Origin: a bacterium
Lineage (GTDB): Bacteria; Patescibacteriota; Dojkabacteria; JAKAPS01; JAJZLI01
Reading direction: 5' to 3'
Assembly: GCA_021810605.1 (NCBI GenBank)
Contig: JAJZIL010000001.1
Span: 67,412 to 131,411 of the forward strand
DNA length: 64,000 nt
Notes under the pieces: model-generated
Seen by the model: only the letters and a program-made list of their open reading frames with translations
Told to the model about the DNA's origin: nothing
The model's database searches: none
Shown: piece by piece, positions 9,081 to 58,019 of the stretch
How positions within the stretch are numbered: position 1 is the first letter of the stretch
How the letters are laid out: each line of letters begins with the position of its first letter
Made by a program: the position numbers and the translations under genes

Positions 9081-9175
9081 TATAATAAAAGATTAACAGG
9101 TTTATTTCTGTATGTAAATTATTGCTTAGATTTATAGACTTTTCCAGATTATTTGAAAGGTATTTTATTTCATAG

Positions 9176-9215: not shown

Positions 9216-9235
9216 AAATTATTTGTTTGCCAAAT

Positions 9236-26009: not shown

Positions 26010-26274
26010 TTTTTAAATTGATCTGAGGTACTAAACTTGTATTAGAGTAAATGTACTTTTTTGATATCTGGTTATATAGTTTTTCATAACCTTTTATATT
26101 TACATATGTTATTGGTGGAACTGTATTTAGAGTATTGTTTGAAGATATTGCAAAAAGATTAATTATTATAATATTAATTATTAAAATTATTATAACAATA
26201 ACTATCTCTATGATCTCAATAGGATGTTTTGAAAATATATTACTCTTTTTTAATTTATTCTTTTTTGTCTTCAT
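25999..26274 (-). CDS. small single-TM protein at end of the pilus-assembly operon
   Basis: ORF with one hydrophobic helix; 4-nt overlap with upstream PilO-like gene; no motif. Confidence 0.3.
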   Translation of the reverse strand: MKTKKNKLKKSNIFSKHPIEIIEIVIVIIILIINIIIINLFAISSNNTLNTVPPITYVNIKGYEKLYNQISKKYIYSNTSLVPQINLKNVL

Positions 26275-28419: not shown

Positions 28420-28746
28420 AAATTCATATTACATTATTTTTACATTTTAGTTAATGCCTGTATGCATTACATGTACCTATACCAAAAATAGTCTGTAAAA
28501 GAATATAATCTGATTAATACAGAATATACAATATCATATATATTAGTAGATCACATTATCTTCCTATTTCTAATGAATTAGTGTTTCTTTAATTTATATA
28601 AATGTATTAATAGGTTAAAATAGAAGTAATATTTTTTTGGAAGAGCAAAGTCATATAAATACTTATAAAATAGCTTAGGTATATAATTTAGGAAGTACAA
28701 AAGGTATAAATAGAGGATTAGATTATATAACAATTGCTTTATATAA

Positions 28747-29199
28747 TGGCAACTAAATTAGTATAATACTAATCAGGGATGTGATTATTTATTTAAAATA
28801 AATGAAGGTATTGGTGCTATAGTTTGGACATTTAATGAGGAGTATGGAAAAATTAAGTTTCCAAATGGAGCTCAGATGGAAGGAAACAGTTCCTACTATT
28901 ACTAAAAATAATGTATATATTGGATCTACTAGTGTCAAAAGATATTTGATGTATCTGTTTCTACTGGAAAAATCTAGTCTCAGAATGCTGTAGGTCTAAA
29001 TAATAAGCCATTTGTTATATTAGATAGTAATTTGTATTATGATAATGGGTTGGGGAATATCCTTGTATATAATAGACATACAGGAAAGTATCTTGCTGAA
29101 AGAACTACTGGAGGGGAAGTTGCAGTGAGTGGTTTGACCTATTCTAATGGTTTCTTTTATGTAGATAATACTGCTGGAAGATTTTTTATTTTTAAATAG
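28747..29199 (+). pseudogene. decayed PQQ-repeat beta-propeller gene (at least 3 frame disruptions)
   Basis: Three consecutive ORF fragments in different frames with propeller-repeat-like content: GIGAIVWTFNEEYGKIKFPNGAQ..., NNVYIGSTS..., and KPFVILDSNLYYDNGLGNILVYNRHTGKYLAERTTGGEVAVSGLTYSNGFFYVDNTAGRFFIFK. Confidence 0.5.
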
Positions 29200-29205
29200 A
29201 CTACA

Positions 29206-30636: not shown

Positions 30637-31123
30637 ATGTTTTTTTAGTTATAATACCACTTGTACCTACATTAGATTCTGTAATATTTACAAGTATTGT
30701 AGGAGAGATTCCTGTGTTAGCTTCTTCACTAAATGATAAATCATATGTATATATATTTGAAGAAGATATCTGTTCAGGAGTATTATTATCATATTGAGAG
30801 TAAATAATCCCATTTGAAGAATAAAACATAATTTTATCTCCTCCTGAGTCTGTTTGTACTATTAAATCATTAGTTGTAGTATTAGTTGGATTTGGAGTCA
30901 ATACTTGATATCCATCTTCAACTGTTTGAGTTATCTCTTTCATACTTATCCTTATAGTATCATTTGCGTTAGCAATTGTTGTTATTTTATTTTGTGTAGA
31001 TATTAAATCTACAAGTATTGTAGTAGTTACAATAATAATAATCCCTAATATTAGTACATAAAGTATAGTTTCAATAAGTGTTTGTCCATTATTATTATTT
31101 CCCATAATTAAAAGGATTGCCAA
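30605..31123 (-). CDS. pseudopilin (prepilin-type N-terminus)
   Basis: GNNNNGQTLIETILYVLILGIIIIV (G|QTLIE plus hydrophobic helix). Confidence 0.65.
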   Translation of the reverse strand: MAILLIMGNNNNGQTLIETILYVLILGIIIIVTTTILVDLISTQNKITTIANANDTIRISMKEITQTVEDGYQVLTPNPTNTTTNDLIVQTDSGGDKIMFYSSNGIIYSQYDNNTPEQISSSNIYTYDLSFSEEANTGISPTILVNITESNVGTSGIITKKTYETTATQRRQ

Positions 31124-31602
31124 TTAGTTAAATATTCAGTCTCTGAGTAAGAAAAATTTTCTCCAAATGAGTTGAAGGATACATTTGCAGTAACTTCCAT
31201 AGAATTTGTATCAATTGGTTGTGTGGTATCTGTTGTAAATGTATTGGAATTTGATCTATATGCTGGAGCAATTACAACATCAACAGTATACTCATTATAT
31301 GTTTCTGATCCTGGAACAAGTTCCCATCCTTGTACTATGTGGGGTGTAGCATTCGTTGGATTATATTGAAGATAATATTCTCCTGCAACAAGATTTGACC
31401 ATGATTGATTCTGTACTGCATAAAGACTCTCTATTTGTTGTTGTAGTAAATATTTTGCTTCTAATTTTTGTTTTGATATTTCTATCGATTTATATACTAG
31501 TTGTACTGAAAAAAGGGAAGATCCAAAAATTATAGCTATAATAGTTATAGTCAAAAGTAATTCAATAAATGCTTGTCCTTTATTATTAATATACTGCTCC
31601 AT
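31108..31602 (-). CDS. pseudopilin (prepilin-type N-terminus)
   Basis: NNKGQAFIELLLTITIIAIIFG (G|QAFIE plus helix). Confidence 0.65.
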   Translation of the reverse strand: MEQYINNKGQAFIELLLTITIIAIIFGSSLFSVQLVYKSIEISKQKLEAKYLLQQQIESLYAVQNQSWSNLVAGEYYLQYNPTNATPHIVQGWELVPGSETYNEYTVDVVIAPAYRSNSNTFTTDTTQPIDTNSMEVTANVSFNSFGENFSYSETEYLTNWQSF

Positions 31603-32053
31603 TATTATTTATATTCATTAATATAAAATAACTTGAGTTTCCTATATCAAAGGATACTCCAGAGTTAGTAAGTTGTCCATTTACAGAGTTAAATATAATT
31701 GGATTATTTTCTGAAGGGGTAAGATTATAAAGTGTTACCTCAGGAGGAAAATAATATGTATCATTAGCACTATTAGTAGAAGAATAGTTGTTTCCAGGAA
31801 ATAGGGTAATTTGATTAGTTTGGAATTCTATTCCATACTGACTAAATCCTGCAAGATTATCAAGTGCATCATCTTGAGCTTCTTTTATCATTGAATATAC
31901 GTTTTGATTTGCACTATCTACATTTGTATGGGTAAGTAATGTCAGATAAGAGAATCCTATGAGCAATGACATTATACCTAGTATTGTTATTACTATTAAA
32001 ATCTCTATGAGTGTAAATCCTTTATTTTGCTGGTGCATTTCCTCCTGCTCCAC
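31586..32053 (-). CDS. pseudopilin / minor pilin (canonical GFTLIE motif)
   Basis: QNKGFTLIEILIVITILGIMSLL. Confidence 0.75.
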   Translation of the reverse strand: MEQEEMHQQNKGFTLIEILIVITILGIMSLLIGFSYLTLLTHTNVDSANQNVYSMIKEAQDDALDNLAGFSQYGIEFQTNQITLFPGNNYSSTNSANDTYYFPPEVTLYNLTPSENNPIIFNSVNGQLTNSGVSFDIGNSSYFILMNINNNGAVY

Positions 32054-33278
32054 TTGCTGCGGAAGTCCCTGAAGTACTTCCGATACTTCCTGTCATCTGA
32101 TATATTGGTGCTATTACTGAGAGTGCTATCAAAAGGACTCCACCTCCCATAACAAATAACATTAAAGGTTCAATTATTACTGACAGATTTGCTAAAGTAT
32201 CATCTACTTGGTTTTGATAAAATTCTGCAACGGAAAGAAGCATTTCAGAAGTATTCCCAGTTTTATCTCCAACAGCAATCATTCTTGTAGCAAGATTAGG
32301 AAAAAGTTTTGGATATTTTGATAAAGTTGGAGATATTTGATCTCCTCTCTCTACACTAGCTCCTAACTCAATTATGATTTTTTTATATGCTTCATTTGAT
32401 ACAGTATCTTTTACAATAGTAATGGATTGATTTATAGGAATTCCACTTTTAAGAAGATTTCCTAATGTTCTTGAAAAATTTGTTACATTTATTTTTTTTA
32501 TAATCTCTCCTACTATTGGGATTTTTACGGAGATAACATTCCATGCATATTTTGCTTGTGGAAGTCTTAGAAGTGCTCTAAATACAAATATAAGGATAAT
32601 AATTAATATTAATACCTCTAATCCATAATGAGTAAGAATATTAGATAAATCTATCATTATTTGAGTAGGTAGAGGGAGAGATTCTCCACTTCCTTTAAAA
32701 AGACCACTTAACTGAGGGAATACAAAAATTATTAATCCTATTGAAACTATAAGCATTATGCTTACTATGATTGCAGGATACATCAAAGCTCCTATAACTT
32801 TTTTTCTTAAATCATAACTTTTTTGTACTTGATCTTTAATAAGAACTGTGTTTTCAGAAATAGTACCACTAGTCTCTCCAATTTCCATCATTTTTACTAT
32901 CAGTGGTGTAAAGATATAAGGATATTTTTTCATAGTATCAGAGAGCTTATTTCCAGATTCTACATTATATTTTAAATCTTCAATAACAGTTTTAAATACC
33001 TTGGTTTCTGCATCTTGTACAAGGGAGTCAAGTGTATCTGCTAGTGAGAGTCCTGCTGTAAGCATTTTTCCCATATGGTCAAAAAAAAGAAGCTTTTCTA
33101 CTAATTTTACCCTTCCCTTTGTTGCATTCTTTGTCTTATCTTTGCTCTCCTCAATTGAAAGAATTGTAAGATTTTCAGATCTGATGATCTCCATTGCTTC
33201 ATCTTTTCCAGATGCACTAACAGTACCTTTTTTAACATCTCCTTGTAGATCTGTAGCTTCATAAATAAATTCTGCCAT
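32022..33278 (-). CDS. pilC: type IV pilus platform protein PilC (GspF family)
   Basis: 418 aa; N-terminal MAEFIYEATDLQGDVKKGTVSASGKDEAMEIIRSENLTILSIEE typical of PilC/GspF; two repeated 3-TM modules. Confidence 0.85.
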   Translation of the reverse strand: MAEFIYEATDLQGDVKKGTVSASGKDEAMEIIRSENLTILSIEESKDKTKNATKGRVKLVEKLLFFDHMGKMLTAGLSLADTLDSLVQDAETKVFKTVIEDLKYNVESGNKLSDTMKKYPYIFTPLIVKMMEIGETSGTISENTVLIKDQVQKSYDLRKKVIGALMYPAIIVSIMLIVSIGLIIFVFPQLSGLFKGSGESLPLPTQIMIDLSNILTHYGLEVLILIIILIFVFRALLRLPQAKYAWNVISVKIPIVGEIIKKINVTNFSRTLGNLLKSGIPINQSITIVKDTVSNEAYKKIIIELGASVERGDQISPTLSKYPKLFPNLATRMIAVGDKTGNTSEMLLSVAEFYQNQVDDTLANLSVIIEPLMLFVMGGGVLLIALSVIAPIYQMTGSIGSTSGTSAASGAGGNAPAK

Positions 33279-33380: not shown

Positions 33381-34019
33381 ATGGATGAGCAAAGTATAGA
33401 GAATATACCAAAAGAGGTTCTGACTGAACAGTATAAACAACTTTTGATAGAGGTAGATTCACTCAAGAAGGATTTATCTGTTAGTCAAGTAAAATTAAAG
33501 GATAATTCTGTACAGATAGAAATTCTTTTAAGACAAATTGATAGGTTAAGACATGATGGAAAAATAGATAAAATGACAAATCTATTTAACAATAATTATC
33601 TTGAAGACAGCTCTGTTGTCTCTGAATTAGAGTCATTATCAAAGAATGGTATAGATTTTGGTATAATTTTTATAGATTTAAATGATCTTAAAAAAATAAA
33701 TGATTCAAAGGGACATAAAGAAGGAGATAAATATATAATTGAATCTTCTAAAGCATTAGTGGAAGTAATTTCTGCTAGAGATACAGTTGTAAGAAAGGGG
33801 GGAGATGAATTTGTAGTTATTGTAAGGCATATTAATTCAGAATATTTACCAAATATAGAAAATACAATTTTAGATAGAATAAAACTATCTTTTTCAGAAA
33901 AGGGTATTAGTGCATCTTTGGGTTTTGCATTATCTTCTGAATGTGGTCATAGTCTAAAGGATACAATAAATTTAGCAGATCAGAGGATGTATATTGTAAA
34001 AAAGGAAGCAAAAAAATAA
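33381..34019 (+). CDS. diguanylate cyclase (GGDEF domain) with N-terminal coiled coil, no sensor domain
   Basis: GIIFIDLNDLKKINDSKGHKEGD ... RKGGDEFVVIV (GGDEF motif present). Confidence 0.8.
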   Translation: MDEQSIENIPKEVLTEQYKQLLIEVDSLKKDLSVSQVKLKDNSVQIEILLRQIDRLRHDGKIDKMTNLFNNNYLEDSSVVSELESLSKNGIDFGIIFIDLNDLKKINDSKGHKEGDKYIIESSKALVEVISARDTVVRKGGDEFVVIVRHINSEYLPNIENTILDRIKLSFSEKGISASLGFALSSECGHSLKDTINLADQRMYIVKKEAKK

Positions 34020-37074: not shown

Positions 37075-38745
37075 TCACTCTTTTACTACTCTTAGTACCT
37101 CTTCTATTGATGTGAGTCCTTCAGATGCTTTTGCAAGGCCATCTTCTATCATAAGACTCATACCATTTGATTGAGCTATTTTTTGAATAACCTCTCCACT
37201 TTCTTTTTTTGTAATTAATTCTTTTATTTTATCGTTAATTTCTAATATCTCATATATACCAATCCTACCTTTATATCCATTATTACAGTATTCACAACCT
37301 ACTGCTTTATAATATTTATTATTTGTAACTTTTTTACCAACTCCTTTTTTTTCATATTGTTCAGAGAGGATACTTAACTCTTTTGCATCCATTTTATATT
37401 CTTTTTTACACGTATTACATAATTTTCTTACTAACCTTTGTGCAATAACAACATTAAGAGTTGAGGCTACAAGAAAAGATTCTACCTGCATATCTATAAG
37501 TCTAGGAATTGCCCCAGATGCATCATTGGTATGTAGAGTAGATAGAACTAAATGTCCAGTCATTGCAGCATTAATAGCTATGTCTGCAGTTTCATTATCT
37601 CTAATTTCTCCAACCATGATAATATCAGGGTCTTGTCTTAAAAAAGATCTTAATCCATTTGCAAAGGTCAGTCCAATGTTGGCAGAGACCTGAGTTTGGT
37701 TGACTCTAGGCATAGTATATTCAATTGGATCTTCAACTGTATTAATATTAACTTCTGGTGTATTTAGCTGAGATAATATAGTATAGAGAGTTGTACTTTT
37801 TCCTGATCCAGTAGGTCCTGTTACTAATATCATTCCAACAGTTCTTTTTATAGAATCTTTAATTTTTTCTAAATCTCCTCCTCTAAAACCAAGTGCTTCT
37901 AGATTATATGATTTAGCATTATCTTCTAAAAGTCTTGTTACTACAACCTCTCCAAAATATACAGGCATAGTAGATACTCTAAAAGATATCTCTTGGTCAT
38001 TAACTAGTGTTTTAAATCTTCCATCTTGAGGAAGTCTATGTTCATCAATTTTAAGGTTAGATAATATTTTAATTCTTGCAACAACTGCCTTATGTATATC
38101 TAATGAATATGTTGCTTGATCGTGTAGTATTCCATCTATTCTATATCTTATAACAGCTCTTTCCTCTAAAGGTTCTAGATGTATATCAGATGCACCCATT
38201 GTTTTTGCGTATTCTAATATAGTATTCGTAATATTAATTATAGGTAATGCCTCAGTATCTTCACTTTTTACATCTTTGGACTCTTTCTCATTTTTTTCTA
38301 TAATATTTTTTAATTCTTCTTTTATTGAAGTTTTATATAATTTTAATCCTTCAAAAAAAGATGTCTCTGTTATAAAGTAAGGATCAATTATATAACCAGT
38401 TCCTTTTTTTAGAAACTCTATTGTATTAATATCTCTTGGATTAGTCATTCCTATCTTTAAAGTAGATTCACTCTTATCAAATGCTATAATTTTTTTCTCA
38501 ATAGCAATTTTTTCTGGGATTATTTTTACTGTTTCAGGATTAATTGTTTTATGAATTAGCGATGTATGTGGGATTGAGTACTCTTTAGTAATCAAATTTC
38601 CTAATTCTTCCTCTGTTATAAGGTTACTACCTATGACTAATTCTTCAATAGAACTTGAAATTTGCTTAGATTTCTCTTCTAATTTCTCATACTCCTCTTT
38701 ACTGGTATAATTATTTTTTATAAGAAGTTCTTTGATATCCATCAC
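37075..38745 (-). CDS. pilB: type IV pilus assembly ATPase PilB (GspE family)
   Basis: Walker A VTGPTGSGKSTT, Walker B MVGEIRD, His box LVLSTLHTN, C-terminal tetracysteine CNTC...CEYC. Confidence 0.9.
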   Translation of the reverse strand: MMDIKELLIKNNYTSKEEYEKLEEKSKQISSSIEELVIGSNLITEEELGNLITKEYSIPHTSLIHKTINPETVKIIPEKIAIEKKIIAFDKSESTLKIGMTNPRDINTIEFLKKGTGYIIDPYFITETSFFEGLKLYKTSIKEELKNIIEKNEKESKDVKSEDTEALPIINITNTILEYAKTMGASDIHLEPLEERAVIRYRIDGILHDQATYSLDIHKAVVARIKILSNLKIDEHRLPQDGRFKTLVNDQEISFRVSTMPVYFGEVVVTRLLEDNAKSYNLEALGFRGGDLEKIKDSIKRTVGMILVTGPTGSGKSTTLYTILSQLNTPEVNINTVEDPIEYTMPRVNQTQVSANIGLTFANGLRSFLRQDPDIIMVGEIRDNETADIAINAAMTGHLVLSTLHTNDASGAIPRLIDMQVESFLVASTLNVVIAQRLVRKLCNTCKKEYKMDAKELSILSEQYEKKGVGKKVTNNKYYKAVGCEYCNNGYKGRIGIYEILEINDKIKELITKKESGEVIQKIAQSNGMSLMIEDGLAKASEGLTSIEEVLRVVKE

Positions 38746-41122: not shown

Positions 41123-43189
41123 ATGGAGAATACTGAAAATGCGCATGCAGTACCACAAAATATAATGAGTGTCGAGTTCAAATTGATAGGAGATTTGTCT
41201 TTGAAACAATTTGTTTTTATAGCTGTTCCTCTGACACTAGGTTTTATAATGTATGTTTTTCATGTAAATAATTATATAACAATTGTATTTACTGGTTTTT
41301 TACTTCTAATAGCACTATTTATAGATTTTGTTCCTGTAGATGATAGACCATTAGATGATTTAATAGTAAATTTTTTAATTGCAATTAAAAACCCAACACA
41401 AAGAGTTTGGAGAAAAAATCCAGAATTTCCAAATATACTTAAAATTCCTAAAATATTAATGCCACAAGAAAAAAAGGATAGTGAAATTGCTACATTTATG
41501 TATCAATCTCCAATAGATAGTAATCTTAATTCACCTTCATCTTCAGATGCTTCGAAATTTTTAGATCAAAGAGAGAAAATTCTTATTGATAATATAGATA
41601 AATTAAATGATTCTCTCAATTCTACACCATCTGGAAACTCAATGGTATCTCCTTCTATTAATAATAATATTCCTTCTTCAGGGATGAATATAAATCCTCC
41701 TTTTATAAATCCATCAGGGAATAATATTAATTCTAATAATCCTCAGAAAGATGAAGTTAATCAATCACAAAATGTAGGAATGGGAACTGGGAATACGAGT
41801 TCGAATATATCATCTCAAAATTTAGGGAATAATAATTCTCCATTTGTTAATAATATTGGAGTAGACCAAAATTTATCGAAATCATCCTCTTTTTCTAATA
41901 ACAATAGTGTAAATGTATTGGAACCTCTAAGAAAACCAGATCCAAAAGATTTCTATAAAAAGTCTTCTGAAGATAATATTGAACATCCTATAAACACTGC
42001 AGTTTTTAATACAGGAAGTATTCCTACAGTTGATCCTAATATTAATCCTCAGAATCCATTTAATTCTGGAGTAGGGAATATTAGTTCAAATTTTGTTCCT
42101 AATACTCCACCTATAACAAATCCTAATATGGGAGTACCTCAAATGAATATTCCAAAAGTAGATAAGAATTATATTAATCCTAATAACAACCCTCCTATAC
42201 AAAATGAAATTAATAACTTCTCTCAACAACCAAGTGTAAATTTGCCACCTATACAACCAGATACAAATATTTCTCAGGGGCAGAATACTGTTCAATCTCT
42301 AACTCAAACAACAGTATCTACTTCATTTGATAGTAATTTAAGTGAACCTCCTGATACTTCGAGTGTGTCAGTAGATACAAATGCTATTCCTCATTCTTAT
42401 GATTATCTATCTTCCTCACCTTCAGAGACTCCTAAAATAGATGAAAATATTGTTAGTCAAACTGTAAATACTAATAAAACTCTTGATCCAGATATTGATA
42501 TAAAAAAAATACTTGAGAAACTAGAAAAACTTGAGAAAGAAAATGATAAGTTAAAAAAACAAGTTGATGAGCAAAATGAAAAAATTGATATAGCTCAAGA
42601 AGTCATAGATCAAAAAAATAGACAAGATGAAATTAATGTATCTAACGTATCCTCGGAGACTCCTTCTCCAAGTCCACAAGATGATATTTCTAATACATTG
42701 GGTATTAATCCTGTATTTGAAAATAATTCTATTCAACCTAGTGTAGATACTACAATTTTAGATTCTAAGAATCAGAAGGAAATTCCTTCTGAAAATAACT
42801 TAAGTTCCTCTATGACTAATCTTACATCACAATCTAATGTATCTACTCAGAATCCAGAGACTACAAAGTCTTCTAAGCAAGAGAGTTTGAAGAAAGAAGA
42901 TATTTTAAAATACCTTCCAGATTTTGTCAGTAATCCGAATATAATCTCTGGTGTAGTTATGAAAAATACAGGGCAGATCCTTCCTGATACAGTAATAATA
43001 ATAAAAGATTCTTCACAAAAACCAGTTAGAGCTATTAAGACTAATCAATTAGGACAATTCTTTATTAGGACTCCTCTTTTGTCAGGAACGTATAATTTAG
43101 AAATTGCATATCAAGGTTTGACATTTGATCCTATCTTTATAGAACTTGATGATACTGTTAAGGATCCTATGTTAATTTATTCAAAATAA
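41123..43189 (+). CDS. PrgI/VirB3-like two-TM protein fused to a long low-complexity extracellular region, coiled coil and C-terminal CarboxypepD_reg-like beta-sandwich
   Basis: N-terminus VEFKLIGDLSLKQFVFIAVPLTLGFIMYVF plus second TM (PrgI-family pattern); about 400 aa N/S/P-rich; coiled coil ILEKLEKLEKENDKLKKQVDEQNEKIDIAQE; C-terminal ISGVVMKNTGQILPDTVIIIKD...GQFFIRTPLLSGTYNLEIAYQG. Confidence 0.5.
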   Translation: MENTENAHAVPQNIMSVEFKLIGDLSLKQFVFIAVPLTLGFIMYVFHVNNYITIVFTGFLLLIALFIDFVPVDDRPLDDLIVNFLIAIKNPTQRVWRKNPEFPNILKIPKILMPQEKKDSEIATFMYQSPIDSNLNSPSSSDASKFLDQREKILIDNIDKLNDSLNSTPSGNSMVSPSINNNIPSSGMNINPPFINPSGNNINSNNPQKDEVNQSQNVGMGTGNTSSNISSQNLGNNNSPFVNNIGVDQNLSKSSSFSNNNSVNVLEPLRKPDPKDFYKKSSEDNIEHPINTAVFNTGSIPTVDPNINPQNPFNSGVGNISSNFVPNTPPITNPNMGVPQMNIPKVDKNYINPNNNPPIQNEINNFSQQPSVNLPPIQPDTNISQGQNTVQSLTQTTVSTSFDSNLSEPPDTSSVSVDTNAIPHSYDYLSSSPSETPKIDENIVSQTVNTNKTLDPDIDIKKILEKLEKLEKENDKLKKQVDEQNEKIDIAQEVIDQKNRQDEINVSNVSSETPSPSPQDDISNTLGINPVFENNSIQPSVDTTILDSKNQKEIPSENNLSSSMTNLTSQSNVSTQNPETTKSSKQESLKKEDILKYLPDFVSNPNIISGVVMKNTGQILPDTVIIIKDSSQKPVRAIKTNQLGQFFIRTPLLSGTYNLEIAYQGLTFDPIFIELDDTVKDPMLIYSK

Positions 43190-43201
43190 GATTTAATAGT
43201 T

Positions 43202-43888
43202 ATGGCTTTATTTGGAAATTCAACACAAAATAATACTCCTATTGTAGCAACTACACAGGATCATCTTAATATATATGATATAAAGGATAATTTTTTAATA
43301 TTAAAGGATAAGAATGTATGTGTAGTAATTGAAACTTCTGCAGTAAATTTTTATCTATTATCTGAAGTAGAGCAGAATTCTAAAATATATGCTTTTGCAG
43401 GAATGCTTAATTCTCTTGGTTTTTATATACAGGTAATGATTCATACTGAAAATGTTGATATATCTTCATATCTTAAAAATATAGATGAATATAAGATAAA
43501 ACAGCAAGACCCTAAGATAAAATATCAAATTGATATATATAGAAAATTTGTTAAAGATCTTATTGTTAAAAATAATGTTTTAGATAAGCATTTTTATATT
43601 GTAATTCCATATCTAACACTTATGCCTAAAAAACCTAGTTTTACTAGTAAAATTTTTGGGAAAGAAGATTCTAATTTTGATGTTGACAGTATGATTTCAC
43701 AGTCATCTTCAAGACTTATTCCTAGAAGGGATCATGTTATAAGACAGCTTTCTAGAATGGGATTAAAATCCAAACAGCTTGAGAGTGCTGAACTTATAAA
43801 ACTTTTTTATAATATATATAATCCTATGAATGCTAAAATTAGAGAAGGTTTTGATGAATATACTAGTCCTATTGTAACTTATAAATAA
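43202..43888 (+). CDS. VirB4 N-terminal-segment-like protein (probable first part of a split Gram-positive-type VirB4)
   Basis: IYDIKDNFLILKDKNVCVVIETSAVNFYLLSEVEQNSKIYAFAGMLNSLGFYIQVMIHTENVDISSYL follows the pattern recalled for the extreme N-terminus of PrgJ/TcpF/TraE-type VirB4 ATPases; stops 2 nt before the next ORF in another frame. Confidence 0.4.
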   Translation: MALFGNSTQNNTPIVATTQDHLNIYDIKDNFLILKDKNVCVVIETSAVNFYLLSEVEQNSKIYAFAGMLNSLGFYIQVMIHTENVDISSYLKNIDEYKIKQQDPKIKYQIDIYRKFVKDLIVKNNVLDKHFYIVIPYLTLMPKKPSFTSKIFGKEDSNFDVDSMISQSSSRLIPRRDHVIRQLSRMGLKSKQLESAELIKLFYNIYNPMNAKIREGFDEYTSPIVTYK

Positions 43889-43890
43889 AT

Positions 43891-46401
43891 ATGAAAATAC
43901 CTTTTAATCTTTTAAAAAATAATGATAATAATCAGACAAATAATGTAGTTCAGGGGTCTATCGATAATCCTGTGATTGAAGGGAATCCTAATTATAAGAA
44001 TACAGATCCAGTTTCTTCTTTTGGTATGGGGATAAATTCAATTAAGGATATTATTGCTCCCCCTTCAATAGAGGTTGATTTCTCTCATATAAAAATAGGT
44101 GAGAAATTTTATAGAACATATTTTGTATTAGCATACCCTAGATATGTTGTTCCAAATTGGCTTTCTCCTCTTATCACATTTGAGCATTCAATTGATATAA
44201 GTATGTTTTATTATCCTATTAATGCTGCAGCTGTAATAACTAAACTTAGAAATAAGATTGCTGAGATGGAAGCTTCTACAAATAATCTAATAGAATCTGG
44301 AAAGGTGATGGATCCTAATTTGAAAGTTGCTTTATCAGATGCGAAGGAATTACAAGAAAATTTAGCAAAAGGAGCGGAGAGATACTTTCATTTTGCATTA
44401 TATGTGACAGTAAGGGCTGGTAGTCAAAATGAGTTAGAAGATATTTCTAAAAATTTAGAGTCTACAATGGGTGCAATGTCACTTATTATAAAACCATCAA
44501 CACTTCAGATGGAAGAAGGTTTTTTATCAACACTTCCTTCAGCAAGTGACAAGCTCTATTATACACATAATATGGATACAACATCCATTGCAACAACTTT
44601 TCCTTTTGTATCCTCTGAGCTTACTTCTGATAGAGGTGTACTATATGGTATTAATAAAGCCAATAAAAGTTTAGTAGTATTTGATCGATTTGAATTAGAA
44701 AATGCTAATTCAGTTATTTTTGCAAAGTCAGGTGCAGGAAAAAGTTATTTAGTAAAGTTAGAGGCATTAAGATCTTTAATGTTAGGAACACAGATAATAA
44801 TAGTGGATCCAGAGAGTGAGTATGAACAGTTATGTAAATCTTTAAATGGTGTGTATATAACATTTTCTCAAGATACTGGATCTAAGATAAATCCTTTTGA
44901 TCTATCAGGTGTTTATGAAGAAGGTGAAGATGAATTAAGGTTTAAAATTCTTTCTCTACATGGTCTTTTTAAAGTTATGTTAGGTGAAGATGGAGGAATT
45001 AGTAGTATGGAAAATGCTATTTTAGACAAAGCTTTGATTTTGACATATCGAGATAAAGGCATAACATTTGATCCTGATACACAAACAAAACAACCACCAT
45101 TAATGGAAGATCTATATAAGATTCTTCAATCAATGGAAGAGCAAGAAGCACATTCTTTAGCACAAAGGTTAGAAAAATATGTTAAAGGTTCTGCTTCTGG
45201 AATTTTTGATCAACAGACAAATGTAAATTTAGATAATGACTTTATTGTTTTTTCAATAAAAGATCTTTCAGATGAATTAAGGCCAGTATCTATGTATTTA
45301 ATGTTAGATTTTATATGGACTAGGGTAAAGAAAGAGCTTAGGAGAAGGATTTTTATAATAGATGAAGCCTGGCTTTTAATGAAGTATCCAGATTCAGCAG
45401 AGTTTGTTTATGCAGTAGCAAAAAGAGCAAGGAAATATTATCTTGGACTGACAACTATTTCTCAGGATGTAGATGATTTTCTTTCTAGTGATTATGGAAA
45501 AGCTGTAGTGACTAACTCTTCAATACAGATATTATTGAGACAGTCTCCAACTGCAATGGATCATTTAGCAGAAGTATTTTATCTTTCTGCAGGGGAGAAA
45601 AATTTATTGCTTAGTGCGGAAGTAGGAGAAGGAATATTTTTTGTTGGAGCTAATCATGTGGCAATCCAGGTTCTTTCATCTGAATATGAAAATACTCTTA
45701 TAACAACAAATCCTGAAGAAATATTAAAAATGAGGAGAAGTCAGTCATCTTTAGACAGAATTGTTCCTAATAATGCAATGAATGAGAACTCTAAAGTGTA
45801 CACTGTAAATAATCCAAAAATAGTAGTAAATATGTCTCAAAATAAGTCTAATACAATATCTGATACAGAAGAAAATACAAATTTAAATCCTTTAGAGAAT
45901 GAGAATGTATTATTTGATGATAGTACAGCTCAAGATACTAATAATACAGCTCCAAATATTAATAATTTTGATCTGTCTGGTGATACTGCAGATAATTCTA
46001 GTGCTATTCAAACTCAAAATGAATTTATTGATACTACAGAAAATTTAAATATTCCTCCTGTAGATAATAATTCTAATCCAATTATTACTCAAAATATGGA
46101 GGAAAACGTTTCTAGTACTAATGATCAAATACCTAATCCTAATTTAGGACAAAGTATTAATGCAGTTCCAGATTTTAACACAAGTACTCAAAGTGATAAT
46201 GGTGTAGATATTCCAACTGAATCTATTCCAGATACTGTAGATATTTCATCTACAAATAGACCTAATGTTAATCCTATTACTCAAGATGCTCAAAAAAATC
46301 AGGTAGAAAGCTCTTATGATACAATAGATACCAATTTAGGAACAACATATTCATTTAAGAATTTTACCCAAGAGAATCCTGTGAATAATTCTCCTCAATA
46401 A
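43891..46401 (+). CDS. VirB4/TraC/PrgJ-like type IV secretion ATPase with about 230-aa low-complexity C-terminal tail
   Basis: N-domain FSHIKIGEKFYRTYFVLAYPRYVVPNWLSPLITFEHSIDISMFYYP; Walker A FAKSGAGKSY; Walker B IFIIDEAWLL; RKYYLGLTTISQDVDDF; tail rich in N/T/S/P/D. Confidence 0.8.
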   Translation: MKIPFNLLKNNDNNQTNNVVQGSIDNPVIEGNPNYKNTDPVSSFGMGINSIKDIIAPPSIEVDFSHIKIGEKFYRTYFVLAYPRYVVPNWLSPLITFEHSIDISMFYYPINAAAVITKLRNKIAEMEASTNNLIESGKVMDPNLKVALSDAKELQENLAKGAERYFHFALYVTVRAGSQNELEDISKNLESTMGAMSLIIKPSTLQMEEGFLSTLPSASDKLYYTHNMDTTSIATTFPFVSSELTSDRGVLYGINKANKSLVVFDRFELENANSVIFAKSGAGKSYLVKLEALRSLMLGTQIIIVDPESEYEQLCKSLNGVYITFSQDTGSKINPFDLSGVYEEGEDELRFKILSLHGLFKVMLGEDGGISSMENAILDKALILTYRDKGITFDPDTQTKQPPLMEDLYKILQSMEEQEAHSLAQRLEKYVKGSASGIFDQQTNVNLDNDFIVFSIKDLSDELRPVSMYLMLDFIWTRVKKELRRRIFIIDEAWLLMKYPDSAEFVYAVAKRARKYYLGLTTISQDVDDFLSSDYGKAVVTNSSIQILLRQSPTAMDHLAEVFYLSAGEKNLLLSAEVGEGIFFVGANHVAIQVLSSEYENTLITTNPEEILKMRRSQSSLDRIVPNNAMNENSKVYTVNNPKIVVNMSQNKSNTISDTEENTNLNPLENENVLFDDSTAQDTNNTAPNINNFDLSGDTADNSSAIQTQNEFIDTTENLNIPPVDNNSNPIITQNMEENVSSTNDQIPNPNLGQSINAVPDFNTSTQSDNGVDIPTESIPDTVDISSTNRPNVNPITQDAQKNQVESSYDTIDTNLGTTYSFKNFTQENPVNNSPQ

Positions 46402-46421
46402 TAGTAGTAAATAGAATATAT

Positions 46422-47153
46422 TTATGATATAAGTTTTGCTTTAACAATAAAACGTTGTGTTCCTATACCTGGAGGGATACAAGTCATAAGAGTAAGATAT
46501 CTTTTTCCTGGAGGATATTGTAATACAGATATATCATTAGGTGATACTACTTGTGTTTGAAATACCTCATATGTATAATTTTCTCCTTTGAATTTAGCAA
46601 ATATTTTATCACCAATTTTAAGTTGTAATATATTCGTAAATATTCCTAAAAAAGATGACGGATATAAATCTGCAAACCATTGTGGGGCAGAGTGCCCATA
46701 AATATATACATTTCCAACCTGTCCTGGAAGGGCAGTTCCCTTCATTTGAGCAAGTGAATTAACTAGAATTTTTTCATATGCATTTGTATTAAATCCATCA
46801 ACTTCAGATTTTACAGGAACATTATTAAGGTTTATGGTAGGAATAGATATATGGAAATAACCTGTATAGGTGTTATTTTTTTGAAAATTTTCTGCTTGTA
46901 TAATTTGTGAAAAATATGAAGCATTTGGATCTGCATTTACTATTTTTGTTTGGTATTGGTGGAATATATTCTGATCTATATAATAGTTGATTATGGGAGA
47001 GATAGCTATTATGACAAAAAACCCACCTACAAAAATTAGAAACATAGCACCATAATTAAATCTTTTTTTTGCTACTCTTGTTCTTTTTCTAGCATTTAAC
47101 TTAATTTTTGGAGGCTTATTATTAATCTTTTTTACATACATATATCTGGACAT
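46422..47153 (-). CDS. sortase family transpeptidase
   Basis: N-terminal TM, conserved His (IYGHSAPQWF), catalytic Cys in LTLMTCIPP (TLxTC) and downstream Arg (QRFIVKAKL). Confidence 0.7.
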   Translation of the reverse strand: MSRYMYVKKINNKPPKIKLNARKRTRVAKKRFNYGAMFLIFVGGFFVIIAISPIINYYIDQNIFHQYQTKIVNADPNASYFSQIIQAENFQKNNTYTGYFHISIPTINLNNVPVKSEVDGFNTNAYEKILVNSLAQMKGTALPGQVGNVYIYGHSAPQWFADLYPSSFLGIFTNILQLKIGDKIFAKFKGENYTYEVFQTQVVSPNDISVLQYPPGKRYLTLMTCIPPGIGTQRFIVKAKLIS

Positions 47154-48441: not shown

Positions 48442-48987
48442 TTAGATGTTTTGTAATGTAGTTATAGTTTTTATTATTTGAAAATCCTCTCTAAGGACAG
48501 ACTTCATATTAGGATTATATAATCCTACTGCTGGATGATAAAGTGGAATAATTTTATATTTTCCATATTTAAAAACTTTGCCATGTATTTGAGATATTTT
48601 TCTATCTTTTAGGAATAATGAAGTAGAATATCTTCCGAGGGTACATATAAGAATAGGGTCAATTAATTTTATTTGTATTTTTAAATAAGGGGAACAGGCA
48701 TTGATCTCATCTTCTTTAGGATCCCTATTTTGAGGTGGTCTACATTTTACTATATTTGTAATAAATATATCTTCTCTTTTAAGATTTATACTTTCTAACA
48801 ACTCATCAAGAATTTTTCCTGACCTTCCACAAAAAGGTATTCCTTCTCTATCCTCATTCTCTCCTGGAGCTTCTCCTATAAAGAATATTTTAGAGTGAAT
48901 ATTACCTTCTCCTGGTACTGCATTTTTTCTATCTTTGCATAAGTTACACTTATTGCAGTTAATAATTTCTTTTCTTATCTTATCCAT
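48442..48987 (-). CDS. uracil-DNA glycosylase, family 4
   Basis: CNKCNLC ... GEGN ... IFFIGEAPGENED ... GIPFCGRSGKILDELL is the family-4 UDG motif set. Confidence 0.85.
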   Translation of the reverse strand: MDKIRKEIINCNKCNLCKDRKNAVPGEGNIHSKIFFIGEAPGENEDREGIPFCGRSGKILDELLESINLKREDIFITNIVKCRPPQNRDPKEDEINACSPYLKIQIKLIDPILICTLGRYSTSLFLKDRKISQIHGKVFKYGKYKIIPLYHPAVGLYNPNMKSVLREDFQIIKTITTLQNI

Positions 48988-50015
48988 TAATATCCAATAG
49001 GTAAGAATAGTTTTAAATTATCTTTATTGATCTCTACTAAATCTATCTTTTCAAGTAGAATCTTTTTAGCAACTCTTCTTCCAATATTCATAAGAACTCT
49101 CTCAAGTTCTCTTATTCCTGCCTCATATCCGAGAGGCCTTATTATATCAGCCCATATATCATCATCTATTTTTATTTGACTCTCAGATAACCCAATTTGT
49201 TTATATACCTTAGGCATTATAAAATCTTTAGCTATTTTTAATTTTTCATCATCTGAGTATGAAGAAAATCGTATAATTTCTAGCCTATCAAGTAGAGCTG
49301 ATGATATAGTTCCTAGATTATTTGCAGTTAGTATAAACATTACTTTTGATAGATCAATTGGAAAATCTATGTAATGATCTATAAATGATGAATTTTGTTC
49401 AGGATCTAATATCTCTAAAAATGTTGCCATTATAGCAGATCGGACACTTCCTTCATCTGAAATTTTATCAAATTCATCTAAGAGTATTACAGGATTCATA
49501 CTTCCAGCTCTAGCTATAGCTTTAATAATATATCCAGGTTCTGCATCTGGATTAACCTTTGACTGCCCTCTAATTTCTAATACTGAAGATATTCCGCCAA
49601 GAGCTATTCGTACAAAATTCCTATTTAGTGCTTCAGCGATTGATTTTGCAATTGTAGTTTTTCCAATCCCTTGTAATCCTACAAAACATAAAACTGGAGC
49701 AGGCTGATCTTTGTTAAAATTCATTGATGCAAGGTATTCTAGAACTCTCTCTTTGACATCATTCATTCCATAATGGTTTTTATCTAGAATTGATTTAGCA
49801 TTAGAAATATCTAAATTATCAGTAGTAATTGTATTCCAAGGAATTTGAGTGATCGTATCTATATATTTAGAAGCAACTTCATAGTCCGATGAATAGCTTT
49901 TAAATTTAGACATTCTCTCTAGTCTTCTTAATATTATTTCTGTATTTTCTTTAAGTGTATCTGGGAGAAAGTTATCTGTAACCTTATCTTTTAAATTCTG
50001 TATATCATCTGTCAT
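48987..50015 (-). CDS. Lon-like AAA+ ATPase module lacking both the N-terminal LON domain and the S16 protease domain
   Basis: Collinear with Lon residues about 250-600: YIDTITQIPWN ... HYGMNDVKERVLEYLA; Walker A GLQGIGKTT; LLDEFDK; ILDPEQNSSFIDHYIDFPIDLSKVMFILTAN; LLDRLEIIRFSSYSDDEKLKIAK. ORF ends right after the AAA module. Confidence 0.8.
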   Translation of the reverse strand: MTDDIQNLKDKVTDNFLPDTLKENTEIILRRLERMSKFKSYSSDYEVASKYIDTITQIPWNTITTDNLDISNAKSILDKNHYGMNDVKERVLEYLASMNFNKDQPAPVLCFVGLQGIGKTTIAKSIAEALNRNFVRIALGGISSVLEIRGQSKVNPDAEPGYIIKAIARAGSMNPVILLDEFDKISDEGSVRSAIMATFLEILDPEQNSSFIDHYIDFPIDLSKVMFILTANNLGTISSALLDRLEIIRFSSYSDDEKLKIAKDFIMPKVYKQIGLSESQIKIDDDIWADIIRPLGYEAGIRELERVLMNIGRRVAKKILLEKIDLVEINKDNLKLFLPIGY

Positions 50016-57053: not shown

Positions 57054-58019
57054 TTAAGGTGCACAACTCCACCTCCATATCTGTTTTTCAGATATTAATT
57101 TAGCCATTTCAGCTATTTGAGCATAAGGATTTCCAATTCCATAGGATATATAAGGGTTTATTTTTTTGTTATAAAAGGTATTCGGCATAAACTGAGCTAT
57201 TCCATAAGCCCCAGATGACTGTGAATTTGGTATTTCAGGTTCAAACTGACTTTCACATTTAATTATATTTACCATTATTGATGAACTTACCTTATAATAA
57301 GAAGCAGCCTTATTTATGAAATATATATATGCACTCTCTCCTACAGGATATCTTGATGTGGTATTAGGAATACTTAATATATTTCCCAAATTTTTAGAAA
57401 TACTATTTTTTGTTGATTGTTCAAAATTAATATTTAGTACTTTCTGAGCATAAGGTATAGATAGAAGATCAATATTACTTATTTCTTTTGGATTGATTTT
57501 ATCTGTATCTATTTCTATTGATTCTCGATCTGCAATGCTCTCCATTATTGGAACCACATCCATATTTAGGGTAGTATCAATTATATTATTTTTATGTGAA
57601 TAAAAATTTTTTCCAACTGTGTTAGCTTGTGATTCAATATATATTCCAAAAGTTCCAGGAATTGATATTAATGTTGCAAATACTAGACTACTTACTCCAT
57701 GCTCTTTTACAAAAGCTCGAATTTTATTCCTAATAGATACTCTATCAGATTTAGTAAGGTTACTTCCAACAGCTTTATCATGAATTCTATCTAAAGAATC
57801 TTTTATAGTATTTGTTGGACTAGTTTCCAGATTGTGAACTGCACAAAAAAAGGCATAAAGTGTCTCATTACTGAGGACTCCTTCTTCAGCAGCTGAGGAT
57901 ACTCTTCTTGTAGAAAGCGATAATAAATCTATTTCGTCTGCTACAAGATGATTACCCTCCATGACAACAGTGAACTCATCTTGAGTATCACCGTGTTCGA
58001 AAGTTTTTCTTTCGATCAT
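57054..58019 (-). CDS. lytic transglycosylase (SLT domain) protein
   Basis: C-terminal CESQFEPEIPNSQSSGAYGIAQFMPNTF = SLT catalytic E-S ... G-(L/I)-(M/A)-Q motif. Confidence 0.65.
   Translation of the reverse strand: MIERKTFEHGDTQDEFTVVMEGNHLVADEIDLLSLSTRRVSSAAEEGVLSNETLYAFFCAVHNLETSPTNTIKDSLDRIHDKAVGSNLTKSDRVSIRNKIRAFVKEHGVSSLVFATLISIPGTFGIYIESQANTVGKNFYSHKNNIIDTTLNMDVVPIMESIADRESIEIDTDKINPKEISNIDLLSIPYAQKVLNINFEQSTKNSISKNLGNILSIPNTTSRYPVGESAYIYFINKAASYYKVSSSIMVNIIKCESQFEPEIPNSQSSGAYGIAQFMPNTFYNKKINPYISYGIGNPYAQIAEMAKLISEKQIWRWSCAP

What the first reader, a model, noticed from the sequence alone, without database searches (positions are those of the whole stretch)
41123..47153. Gram-positive-style type IV secretion-like module (PrgI-like fusion, split VirB4, sortase) without relaxase or coupling protein
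Three co-directional genes (41123..46401) encode a PrgI/VirB3-like membrane protein and a VirB4-family ATPase split into two ORFs. A sortase is encoded convergently right behind them. No VirD4, relaxase or VirB6 is visible within the flanking genes (galU upstream, dnaJ downstream). A minimal T4SS-like set embedded among housekeeping genes in a reduced genome is not a standard conjugation locus. It may be a surface or host-interaction apparatus, or a DNA-uptake apparatus.
Basis: partly seen in the sequence, partly recalled or inferred. Interest (0 to 1): 0.7.

Follow-up and report, generated by a model that had tools for sequence, protein, structure and literature searches.

The report
Known Patescibacteria type IV secretion core
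The three genes are the core (VirB3-like membrane anchor, TrsD, VirB4 ATPase) of the chromosomal, relaxase-less type IV secretion system already described across Patescibacteria (2023-2025 papers); the neighbouring sortase is intact but sits there by accident of gene order.

Summary
ORFs 41123-43189, 43202-43888 and 43891-46401 encode a PrgI/VirB3-like membrane protein, a TrsD-like protein equivalent to the N-terminal piece of VirB4, and a VirB4 ATPase with intact Walker motifs. An intact sortase lies convergently behind them. No coupling protein, relaxase, VirB6, integrase, tRNA or att-like repeat occurs in the 64 kb window.

The "split VirB4" is not a broken gene. The three abutting ORFs recur in about 80 Dojkabacteria/WWE3-like genomes. 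They are collinear with trsC-trsD-trsE of the staphylococcal plasmid pSK41 and with single-chain mycoplasma ICE VirB4.

This system is already published. It is the monoderm-type (MPF-FATA-derived) T4SS found in about 80% of Patescibacteria genomes, without a relaxase and near dnaA (Quinonero-Coronel 2025). Its counterpart in Southlakia is essential for epibiotic growth (Wang 2023).

The sortase is not part of it. It pairs with dnaJ. In five sister genomes a second T4SS module (VirB2-like pilin, VirB6-like, VirB3-like, TrsD-like, second VirB4) sits between virB4 and the sortase.

Minor items I did not find in the papers I read: the PrgI protein always carries a C-terminal transthyretin-like beta-sandwich, and this lineage has expanded low-complexity linkers.

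Verdict: correct reading, low novelty.

The parts
41123..43189 (+). PrgI/VirB3-like membrane protein, 688 aa. N-terminal PrgI domain with a two-helix hairpin (aa ~21-65) and a conserved NPTQRVW segment. N/S/P-rich low-complexity linker with a coiled coil (aa ~110-585). C-terminal transthyretin/CnaB-like beta-sandwich (aa 586-688, nt 42878-43186).
   Evidence: Pfam PrgI E=2.1e-4 and CarboxypepD_reg E=1.1e-5. Homologues exceed the PrgI gathering score. The C-terminal domain is present in all 72 PrgI sequences searched, the window's included. AF2 model pLDDT 87, with Foldseek hits to transthyretin-like and CnaB domains. Linker composition N16 S15 P9 %.
43202..43888 (+). TrsD/TraD-like protein, 228 aa. 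It is the detached N-terminal domain of VirB4.
   Evidence: NCBIfam TrsD E=1.8e-5 and Mbov_0397 VirB4 positions 103-233 at E=3.3e-9. hhalign against pSK41 TrsD gives 93.7%, E=1.9e-7; against the Pontibacillus TrsD-like protein 99.9%, E=1.8e-31. AF2 model pLDDT 77.6; the top 14 PDB hits are all TrwK/VirB4 chains. It is a separate ORF in about 77 loci.
43891..46401 (+). VirB4-family ATPase, 836 aa. Core aa ~50-605, with Walker A AKSGAGKS at aa 278-285 (nt 44722-44745) and Walker B IFIIDEAW. C-terminal N/S/T-rich low-complexity tail aa ~611-836 (nt 45721-46398).
   Evidence: NCBIfam CD1110-family VirB4 400 bits, above the cutoff of 325, covering profile positions 186-733. PDB 4ag5 E=2.8e-51. pSK41 TrsE 27% identity, E=6e-45. 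Walker motifs and tail composition.
46422..47153 (-). Membrane-anchored sortase, 243 aa. It is a neighbour, not a conserved component of the module.
   Evidence: Pfam Sortase 82 bits and TIGR01076 61.7 bits, above the cutoff of 39. Closest solved structures are class C-type sortases. It is always divergent from dnaJ, and 5-9 kb from virB4 in L002-L006. No LPXTG protein in the window.
57054..58019 (-). SLT-domain lytic transglycosylase-like protein. A possible VirB1-type cell-wall helper; its link to the module is speculative.
   Evidence: Pfam SLT E=2.5e-8, 33.9 bits, above the cutoff of 21.3. It lies 10.6 kb from virB4. Linkage was not tested.

Best explanation
This is the vertically inherited, chromosomal core of the Patescibacteria type IV secretion system, in a low-GC Dojkabacteria-related genome.

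What the parts most likely do:
- The PrgI/VirB3-like protein inserts as a two-helix hairpin in the cytoplasmic membrane.
- Its conserved post-membrane segment recruits TrsD. TrsD is structurally the N-terminal domain of VirB4.
- TrsD binds the VirB4 ATPase. Together they would rebuild the VirB3-VirB4 membrane-associated motor that energises assembly and transport in all T4SSs.

There is no relaxase or coupling protein, and the locus has a fixed place among housekeeping genes. So the motor is not used for conjugation. It most likely powers contact-dependent transfer of macromolecules between the episymbiont and its host cell.

Shown here: homology, gene order, conservation, and absence of conjugation genes in the window.

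Inferred: the PrgI-TrsD-VirB4 docking order, the cytoplasmic location of the PrgI linker and beta-sandwich, the substrate, and the direction of transport.

Channel (VirB6) and pilin (VirB2) parts must be encoded elsewhere, be too divergent to recognise, or be absent.
For: Identity of the parts:
- VirB4, TrsD, PrgI and sortase were identified by HMMs.
- Walker A and B motifs are intact.

Conservation and inheritance:
- The triad is conserved as three abutting ORFs in essentially all loci with enough upstream sequence, out of 80 Patescibacteria loci. Identity falls with taxonomic distance: 72-84% in the subclade and 55-64% in Dojkabacteria/WWE3.
- GC content does not differ from the flanks. There is no tRNA and no att-like repeat.

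TrsD is the missing N-terminal piece of VirB4:
- The window's TrsD maps to Mbov_0397 positions 103-233.
- TrsD-like proteins of L162 and L002 map to CD1110 profile positions 11-150.
- The VirB4 ORF begins at CD1110 position 186 and Mbov_0397 position 271.
- The TrsD fold matches TrwK/VirB4.

Same order in known monoderm systems:
- The order matches trsC-trsD-trsE of pSK41 and a Pontibacillus locus.
- The nearest plasmid VirB4s are from monoderms at 31-39% identity.

Literature:
- A Patescibacteria-specific VirB4 clade occurs in 2,407 of 3,035 genomes. TrsD is the most abundant associated component, PrgI/VirB3 is associated, relaxases are rare, and the locus is near dnaA/dnaN/rnpA/ksgA (PMC12102498).
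- T4SS genes are essential for epibiotic growth of Southlakia (PMC10633639; PMC12857230).
- The window holds dnaA, dnaN, rnpA and ksgA.
Against: - No VirB6-like channel or VirB2-like pilin is present in 64 kb, so a complete translocon is not demonstrated for this genome.
- The window's own PrgI score is below Pfam's gathering threshold.
- PrgI compared with pSK41 TrsC is weak (hhalign 15%).
- Essentiality and host-interaction data come from Saccharimonadia, a different class.
- The topology of PrgI rests only on a positive-inside count. Transthyretin/CnaB-like domains are usually extracytoplasmic in bacteria, which sits uneasily with a cytoplasmic placement.
- I made no phylogeny, so placement in the published Patescibacteria clade is by proxy.
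Confidence: 0.8

Rival explanations
1. It is a remnant of an integrated conjugative element or plasmid. On this reading the T4SS has decayed, losing its relaxase, coupling protein and VirB6, and its virB4 has been broken into two ORFs.
For: The closest non-CPR homologues are conjugation ATPases of monoderm plasmids and ICEs. The gene set is incomplete for conjugation. The region just downstream of virB4 is variable between sister genomes and carries AbiE-like toxin-antitoxin genes in L005 and L006.
Against: The three ORFs are intact and abutting. They are conserved across about 80 genomes at the same chromosomal position, with divergence that tracks taxonomy. The TrsD/VirB4 boundary is the same as in functional pSK41. 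Walker motifs are intact. There is no integrase, tRNA, att repeat or GC shift.
Confidence: 0.04
2. It is a DNA or RNA import machine, like the archaeal Ced system or Helicobacter ComB. On this reading the VirB4 motor pulls host nucleic acid into a cell that cannot make nucleotides.
For: VirB4-based importers exist. Patescibacteria lack nucleotide synthesis. comEC is dispensable for Southlakia growth while the T4SS is essential (PMC12857230). A 2026 preprint reports host-RNA feeding, T4SS-pilus-like tubes at the parasite-host interface and monophyletic VirB4 in this phylum (10.64898/2026.06.21.733656). A type IV pilus cluster and pilB lie next to the locus.
Against: The match to CedD is only generic (22.6 bits against a cutoff of 600). 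No CedA/CedB-like or ComB-like partners were identified. No nucleic-acid-binding domain was seen in the three proteins. The direction of transport cannot be read from sequence. This is a sub-case of the main explanation rather than a true alternative.
Confidence: 0.25
3. It is a joint T4SS-sortase surface apparatus. On this reading the sortase anchors or polymerises a surface adhesin or pilus that works with the VirB4 motor.
For: The sortase is intact and membrane-anchored, and lies 20 bp from the virB4 stop. Gram-positive conjugation systems use sortase-anchored adhesins such as PrgB (my own knowledge).
Against: The adjacency holds only here and in L001. In L002-L006 the genes are separated by 5-9 kb. 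In most Dojkabacteria loci no sortase lies within 10 kb. The sortase always travels with dnaJ. No LPXTG-type substrate is in the window. The 2025 survey found no PrgB-type adhesins.
Confidence: 0.05

Closest known systems
Patescibacteria-clade T4SS (Quinonero-Coronel et al. 2025, Microb Genom, PMC12102498; essential T4SS SEML1_0006-0019 of Southlakia epibionticum, Wang et al. 2023, PMC10633639)
   Same: Chromosomal location. Monoderm-type (MPF-FATA-like) VirB4 with TrsD and PrgI/VirB3 encoded next to it. No relaxase or T4CP nearby. In the replication-origin region together with dnaA, dnaN, rnpA and ksgA. Reduced CPR genome with type IV pili.
   Different: No VirB2-like pilin array, VirB6 or VirB1-like gene lies beside virB4 here. 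The PrgI protein carries a long low-complexity linker and a C-terminal transthyretin-like domain, and VirB4 has a ~225 aa low-complexity tail. Neither feature is mentioned in the papers I read (no occurrence of 'CarboxypepD' or 'sortase').
pGO1/pSK41 subclass of monoderm conjugative T4SS (trsC-trsD-trsE; equivalent to traC-traD-traE of pIP501)
   Same: Same three genes in the same order. TrsD is 227 aa there and 228 aa here (hhalign 93.7%). TrsE/VirB4 is 27% identical over about 590 aa.
   Different: pSK41 also has TrsK (VirD4), TrsL (TrbL/VirB6), TrsG (CHAP hydrolase), topoisomerase, relaxase and oriT, and it is a mobile plasmid. None of these is present here. TrsC lacks the C-terminal beta-sandwich.
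CD1110-family and Mbov_0397-family VirB4 of Clostridioides CTn2 and Mycoplasma ICEs, and the related Pontibacillus megaplasmid locus (L162)
   Same: Best-scoring VirB4 family (400 bits). Mbov_0397 covers VirB3-like, TrsD-like and VirB4 segments in one chain, in the same order as the triad. The Pontibacillus locus has the same split VirB3-like/TrsD-like/VirB4 arrangement, 38.6% VirB4 identity and a TrsD match at E=1.8e-31.
   Different: Those loci include a pilin-like protein (Mbov_0395 family), a large membrane protein and a peptidoglycan hydrolase beside virB4. ICE versions are mobile.
R388 TrwM(VirB3)-TrwK(VirB4) inner-membrane complex (PDB 7o41, 8rtb)
   Same: The TrsD model matches TrwK (Foldseek probability 1.0, TM about 0.46-0.49 normalised to the query). 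By analogy the VirB3-like hairpin holds the VirB4 N-terminal domain at the membrane.
   Different: R388 is a diderm system in which VirB4 is a single chain. It also has VirB6, VirB8, VirB10 and an outer-membrane core.

Membership tests
Patescibacteria-clade T4SS | VirB4 homologue of monoderm (MPF-FATA) type | tested here: met
   NCBIfam CD1110 family 400 bits, above the cutoff of 325. 4ag5 E=2.8e-51. Nearest plasmid homologues are Bacillota and Actinomycetota.
Patescibacteria-clade T4SS | VirB4 falls inside the monophyletic Patescibacteria clade | tested here: inconclusive
   No tree was built. By proxy, the 80 best genome hits are all Patescibacteria at 55-84% identity, against at most 39% for any plasmid VirB4.
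Patescibacteria-clade T4SS | TrsD homologue encoded next to virB4 | tested here: met
   43202-43888 lies 2 nt upstream of virB4. TrsD HMM, hhalign and fold evidence.
Patescibacteria-clade T4SS | VirB3/PrgI homologue near virB4 | tested here: met
   PrgI E=2.1e-4 for the window protein, below the gathering score. Orthologues score above it. NCBI names orthologues 'PrgI family protein'.
Patescibacteria-clade T4SS | No relaxase or T4CP associated with virB4 | tested here: met
   The Walker-A survey, Pfam scans and ORF reading of the 64 kb window found none. The rest of the genome was not seen.
Patescibacteria-clade T4SS | VirB2-like pilins and VirB6 near virB4 (frequent, but not universal, in the published survey) | tested here: not met
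   None in the window. They are present in sister genomes L002-L006, as a second module.
Patescibacteria-clade T4SS | Chromosomal context close to dnaA, dnaN, rnpA and ksgA | tested here: met
   dnaA at 1573, dnaN at 3233, rnpA at 23939 and ksgA at 25275 are in the same window. rnpA and ksgA are within about 20 genes of virB4. dnaA is about 40 kb away, outside the paper's 20-CDS range.
Patescibacteria-clade T4SS | Required for epibiotic growth | not testable with these tools
   Shown only for Southlakia epibionticum (PMC10633639).
Conjugative monoderm T4SS (pGO1/pSK41 type) | VirB3-like/TrsD/VirB4 gene order | tested here: met
Conjugative monoderm T4SS (pGO1/pSK41 type) | Coupling protein, relaxase/oriT, VirB6-like channel and cell-wall hydrolase in the same locus | tested here: not met
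   Absent from the 64 kb window. Only a distant SLT protein at 57054-58019.
Integrative conjugative element | Integrase, flanking att repeats or tRNA target, compositional shift, patchy distribution | tested here: not met
   No tRNA, no convincing repeats and GC 0.28-0.31, like the flanks. The locus is present at a syntenic site in about 80 genomes.
Sortase-dependent surface or pilus locus | Sortase with catalytic His/Cys/Arg | tested here: met
   Pfam Sortase 82 bits. YGHS, TLMTC and QRF motifs are visible in the translation.
Sortase-dependent surface or pilus locus | Adjacent substrate with an LPXTG-type sorting signal | tested here: not met
   A regex scan of all ORFs of 60 aa or more found none.
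Ced/ComB-type DNA importers | Specific partner proteins (CedA/CedB or ComB2-10) and equivalog-level ATPase match | tested here: not met
   CedD scores 22.6 bits against a cutoff of 600. No partners were recognised.

The most novel reading that the evidence does not exclude
The class-wide triad would be a self-sufficient machine without a pilin or VirB6. It consists of PrgI with a conserved C-terminal transthyretin-like domain, TrsD, and VirB4 with disordered extensions. Its function would differ from that of the pilus-forming patescibacterial T4SS.

The support is that sister genomes (L002-L006) carry the triad plus a second, complete VirB2/VirB6/VirB3/TrsD/VirB4 module, while this genome and L001 show only the triad at that site. 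That presence/absence pattern would be a natural experiment separating two T4SS-derived functions in one lineage. The PrgI beta-sandwich would be a new adaptor or substrate-docking element.
Probability: 0.15. Interest if true: 0.6.

Novelty: already known. Interest (0 to 1): 0.3.

Why it matters
The T4SS of Patescibacteria is one of the few machines shown to be essential for the epibiotic lifestyle of this very large, mostly uncultured group. Its substrate and direction of transport are still unknown.

This locus adds no new kind of system, but it gives three useful details:
- It shows cleanly that the "split" VirB4 is the ancestral TrsD plus VirB4 arrangement shared with staphylococcal plasmids, a Bacillota megaplasmid and (fused) mycoplasma ICEs.
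- It shows that in Dojkabacteria and WWE3 relatives the VirB3-like anchor always carries an extra beta-sandwich domain.
- It shows that closely related genomes differ by a whole second T4SS module.

These points could guide the choice of constructs for structural work and of lineages for comparative or genetic tests.

Tried and rejected
1. I looked for sortase substrates (LPXTG-like motif followed by a hydrophobic tail) in all window ORFs and found none.
2. I looked for VirB2, VirB6, VirB3, TrsD2 and VirB4b of the sister-genome second module in the window by tblastn at E up to 10. Only the known virB4 matched.
3. I scanned metagenome contigs with a VirB4b profile, to learn whether the window's own genome holds the second module elsewhere.
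4. The PrgI profile against pSK41 TrsC by hhalign gave only 15% probability. The VirB3 equivalence therefore rests on the Pfam PrgI match, topology and gene order.
5. The Pfam family PF26593, precomputed for TrsD homologues, is not in the local Pfam copy. Its name could not be checked, and scans of the window TrsD, P0056 and P0116 returned nothing.
6. The sequence search of TrsD against the PDB found nothing meaningful. Only the fold search did.
7. The promoter and terminator scans were no better than shuffled sequence and found no terminators, so operon boundaries are not established.
8. The direct-repeat search for att sites gave only weak chance-like matches.
9. I rejected the pseudogene/ICE-remnant reading and the sortase-as-component reading on the conservation evidence.


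Full report
**Setting**

The window is a low-GC stretch (0.20-0.32) of a Patescibacteria/CPR-type chromosome near the replication origin. It holds dnaA (1573-2916), dnaN (3233-4369), rnpA, yidC, ksgA, hrcA-grpE-dnaK and pentose-phosphate genes. It also holds a large type IV pilus cluster: a PilM-PilN fusion, a PilO-like gene, pseudopilins, PilC at 26271-33278, pilB at 37075-38745 and pilins at 266-1451. There are no tRNAs. The best genome matches to the VirB4 are all Patescibacteria MAGs. Seven unnamed or 'Patescibacteria group' MAGs match at 72-84%. Candidatus Dojkabacteria (WS6), WWE3 and MAGs labelled Saccharibacteria match at 55-64%. The exact proteins are already in public collections as 'hypothetical protein', on contigs up to 303,618 bp.

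**Check of the observation**

The four ORFs exist as described.

- ORF 41123-43189 (688 aa) has a weak PrgI match at its N-terminus (E=2.1e-4, below Pfam's gathering score) and a CarboxypepD_reg-like match at its C-terminus. Its orthologues pass the PrgI threshold and NCBI names them 'PrgI family protein'.
- ORF 43202-43888 (228 aa) matches the NCBIfam TrsD/TraD family and positions 103-233 of the 894-position Mbov_0397 VirB4 model.
- ORF 43891-46401 (836 aa) is a clear VirB4. The CD1110 family scores 400 bits against a cutoff of 325. Pfam P-loop_TraG gives 1.4e-29 and PDB 4ag5 gives 2.8e-51. Walker A (AKSGAGKS) and Walker B (IFIIDEAW) are intact.
- ORF 46422-47153 (-) is an intact, membrane-anchored sortase (82 bits; TLMTC motif).

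A galU-like gene and dnaJ flank the set. In the whole 64 kb there is no coupling ATPase: the only Walker-A proteins are DnaA, an AAA_14 protein, PilB, VirB4, a Lon-like AAA and IF2. I recognised no relaxase or integrase in the ORFs I read or in the uncertain ORFs I scanned against Pfam. There is no VirB6-like polytopic protein either. The polytopic proteins are a GT4/MraY-like protein, YidC, PilC, VIT and an amino-acid permease.

**What the 'split VirB4' is**

It is a conserved two-gene arrangement, not a disrupted gene.

- In the 80 related loci, wherever enough upstream sequence is held, a PrgI-like, a TrsD-like (about 210-230 aa) and a VirB4 (about 790-870 aa) ORF abut or overlap in that order.
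- The window's TrsD maps to Mbov_0397 positions 103-233. The TrsD-like proteins of L162 and L002 map to positions 11-150 of the 752-position CD1110 VirB4 model. The window's VirB4 ORF begins at CD1110 position 186 and Mbov_0397 position 271. The two proteins together therefore make one full-length VirB4.
- The small VirB3-like protein of a sister genome maps to Mbov_0397 positions 13-96. The mycoplasma ICE protein is thus a one-chain version of the whole triad.
- An AlphaFold model of TrsD (pLDDT 77.6) finds only TrwK/VirB4 chains of the R388 system among its 14 best PDB matches (probability 1.0).
- The same order occurs in the staphylococcal plasmid pSK41 as trsC-trsD-trsE. TrsD matches the CPR TrsD profile at 93.7%, E=1.9e-7. 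TrsE is 27% identical to the window VirB4 over about 590 residues.
- The same order also occurs in a Pontibacillus megaplasmid locus holding the closest non-CPR VirB4 (38.6%). Its TrsD-like protein matches at E=1.8e-31.

**The PrgI 'fusion'**

- The C-terminal ~100 residues form a conserved domain found in all 72 PrgI sequences searched, the window's included. It also occurs in WWE3 and other CPR proteins that carry PF12666 plus PF13620.
- Its model (pLDDT 87) is a transthyretin/CnaB-like beta-sandwich.
- Typical Dojkabacteria proteins are about 275 aa. The window's subclade has 540-690 aa because of an expanded N/S/P/Q-rich linker with a coiled coil.
- The VirB4 tail (aa 611-836) is similarly N/S/T-rich. 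In typical Dojkabacteria that position holds a charged coiled-coil segment. I read both expansions as compositional growth of disordered segments in a 28% GC genome. This is inference.
- A positive-inside count over 68 homologues gives two hydrophobic segments and a ~3-residue loop nearly free of K/R. It points to both termini being cytoplasmic. That placement fits VirB3 holding the VirB4 N-terminal domain in R388. It is unusual for this fold, and I could not run a real topology predictor or a multimer prediction.

**The sortase**

The sortase is not part of the module.

- In the subclade it is always divergent from dnaJ.
- It abuts virB4 only here and in L001, where the two stop codons are 20 bp apart.
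- In L002-L006, 5-9 kb lie between virB4 and the sortase.
- In most other loci the downstream neighbour of virB4 is a small conserved ORF followed by a Lon-like AAA gene, and no sortase is within 10 kb.
- No LPXTG substrate is in the window.

**The second module in sister genomes**

The inserted DNA in L002-L006 is itself a second T4SS module. It contains:
- a VirB2-like pilin (Pfam T4SS_pilin 30.2 bits, above the cutoff of 26.6; Mbov_0395 family E=1.7e-8);
- a 306-343 aa polytopic VirB6-like protein;
- a 95-133 aa VirB3-like protein;
- a second TrsD-like protein;
- a second, shorter VirB4 that is only about 32% identical to the first.

Lineage-specific cargo accompanies it, such as AbiE-like toxin-antitoxin genes. 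Whether the window's genome has this module elsewhere could not be settled.

**Comparison with what is known**

The finding is a rediscovery of a published system.

- Quinonero-Coronel et al. 2025 (PMC12102498) surveyed 3,035 Patescibacteria genomes. They found a phylum-specific VirB4 clade nested in the monoderm MPF-FATA class in 2,407 of them. TrsD was the most abundant associated component and PrgI/VirB3 was frequently adjacent. Relaxases were almost always absent, T4CP was rarely nearby, and the chromosomal position was close to dnaA, dnaN, rnpA and ksgA. They also note that VirB6 is scarce or unrecognisable in some classes.
- Wang et al. 2023 (PMC10633639) showed by Tn-seq that the T4SS genes of Southlakia epibionticum are essential for epibiotic growth.
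- The 2025 FEMS review (PMC12857230) highlights these systems.
- A 2026 preprint (10.64898/2026.06.21.733656) reports T4SS-pilus-like tubes at a parasite-host interface and host-RNA feeding.

The window locus meets every testable defining feature except adjacent pilin and VirB6 genes. It fails the defining features of a conjugative element or an ICE.

**Mechanism**

Most likely (0.8) this is the membrane-associated VirB3-(TrsD+VirB4) ATPase motor of a non-conjugative T4SS that serves the episymbiont-host interaction. The composition and conservation are shown here. The docking order, the topology, the substrate (protein, DNA or RNA) and the direction of transport are inferred. Nucleic-acid import is a live sub-hypothesis (0.25). 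The ICE-remnant reading (0.04) and the sortase-coupled reading (0.05) are disfavoured by conservation and synteny.

**Verdict**

The points worth keeping are the conserved PrgI beta-sandwich, the explicit collinearity of the triad with pSK41 trsCDE and with single-chain mycoplasma VirB4, and the presence or absence of a second complete T4SS module among sister genomes.

Noticed in passing
L002:11634-15204, L003:15602-19193, L004:13271-17009, L005:6259-9944, L006:14661-18430: Five sister genomes carry a second T4SS module between virB4 and the sortase. It holds a VirB2-like pilin (T4SS_pilin / Mbov_0395 family), a VirB6-like polytopic protein, a small VirB3-like protein, a second TrsD-like protein and a short second VirB4 about 32% identical to the first. 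It is absent at this site in the window and in L001.
   Followed up: partly
L038:12060-12329, L047:12084-12350 and 56 other loci: A small conserved ORF (73-96 aa, C-terminus ...ALRLSNPFKGY) overlaps the 3' end of virB4 in most Dojkabacteria loci. It may be a fourth gene of the operon. It has no Pfam match and is not present in the window's subclade.
   Followed up: partly
window 48987-50015 (-): A Lon-like AAA+ protein (AAA plus Lon_lid domains, 342 aa) with no Pfam match to a Lon protease domain. Its homologue is the conserved convergent neighbour of virB4 in 65 of 81 loci. Here the sortase, dnaJ and a uracil-DNA-glycosylase-like gene are interposed.
   Followed up: partly
L005:4291-6256 and L006:13242-14496: Gene pairs that by eye resemble AbiE-type toxin-antitoxin (nucleotidyltransferase plus antitoxin) sit in the variable region just downstream of virB4. 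This suggests the site is an insertion hotspot. I ran no HMM on them.
   Followed up: no
L162 (Pontibacillus sp. ALD_SL1 megaplasmid NZ_CP062975.1, 351801-361354): The closest non-CPR relative of the triad lies in a replicon typed as non-mobilizable, next to flagellar and chemotaxis genes. It has an Mbov_0395-type pilin-like protein, a 779 aa unknown protein, a VirB3-like protein, a TrsD-like protein, VirB4 and a large peptidoglycan endopeptidase. So VirB2-like pilins and the TrsD split are not confined to CPR among monoderms.
   Followed up: partly
L001:7200-9295: In the closest relative the PrgI gene reads as two overlapping ORFs (7200-8306 and 8264-9295). This is a frameshift inside the low-complexity linker, either real or an assembly error.
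   Followed up: no
window 26271-33278, 37075-38745, 266-1451: A large type IV pilus gene set lies within about 2-15 kb of the T4SS genes: a PilM-PilN fusion, a PilO-like gene, a PilX-like 476 aa protein, three pseudopilins, PilC, PilB and two pilin-like genes beside dnaA. A GGDEF protein (33381-34019) lies between PilC and PilB.
   Followed up: partly
window 12920-13576 and 13636-14403: Two adjacent proteins (218 and 255 aa) that look paralogous and secreted, with no Pfam match. They share motifs such as FxSKFPxKVxV. Function unknown.
   Followed up: no
window 57054-58019 (-): A protein with a C-terminal SLT lytic-transglycosylase domain (33.9 bits). It could play the VirB1 role for the T4SS or serve the type IV pilus.
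   Followed up: no
window 4001-8000 and 7014-9080 (-): The lowest GC of the window (0.20) lies just after dnaN. There, a 688 aa protein has a weak epimerase-like N-terminus and a long unassigned C-terminal region with a central membrane segment.
   Followed up: no
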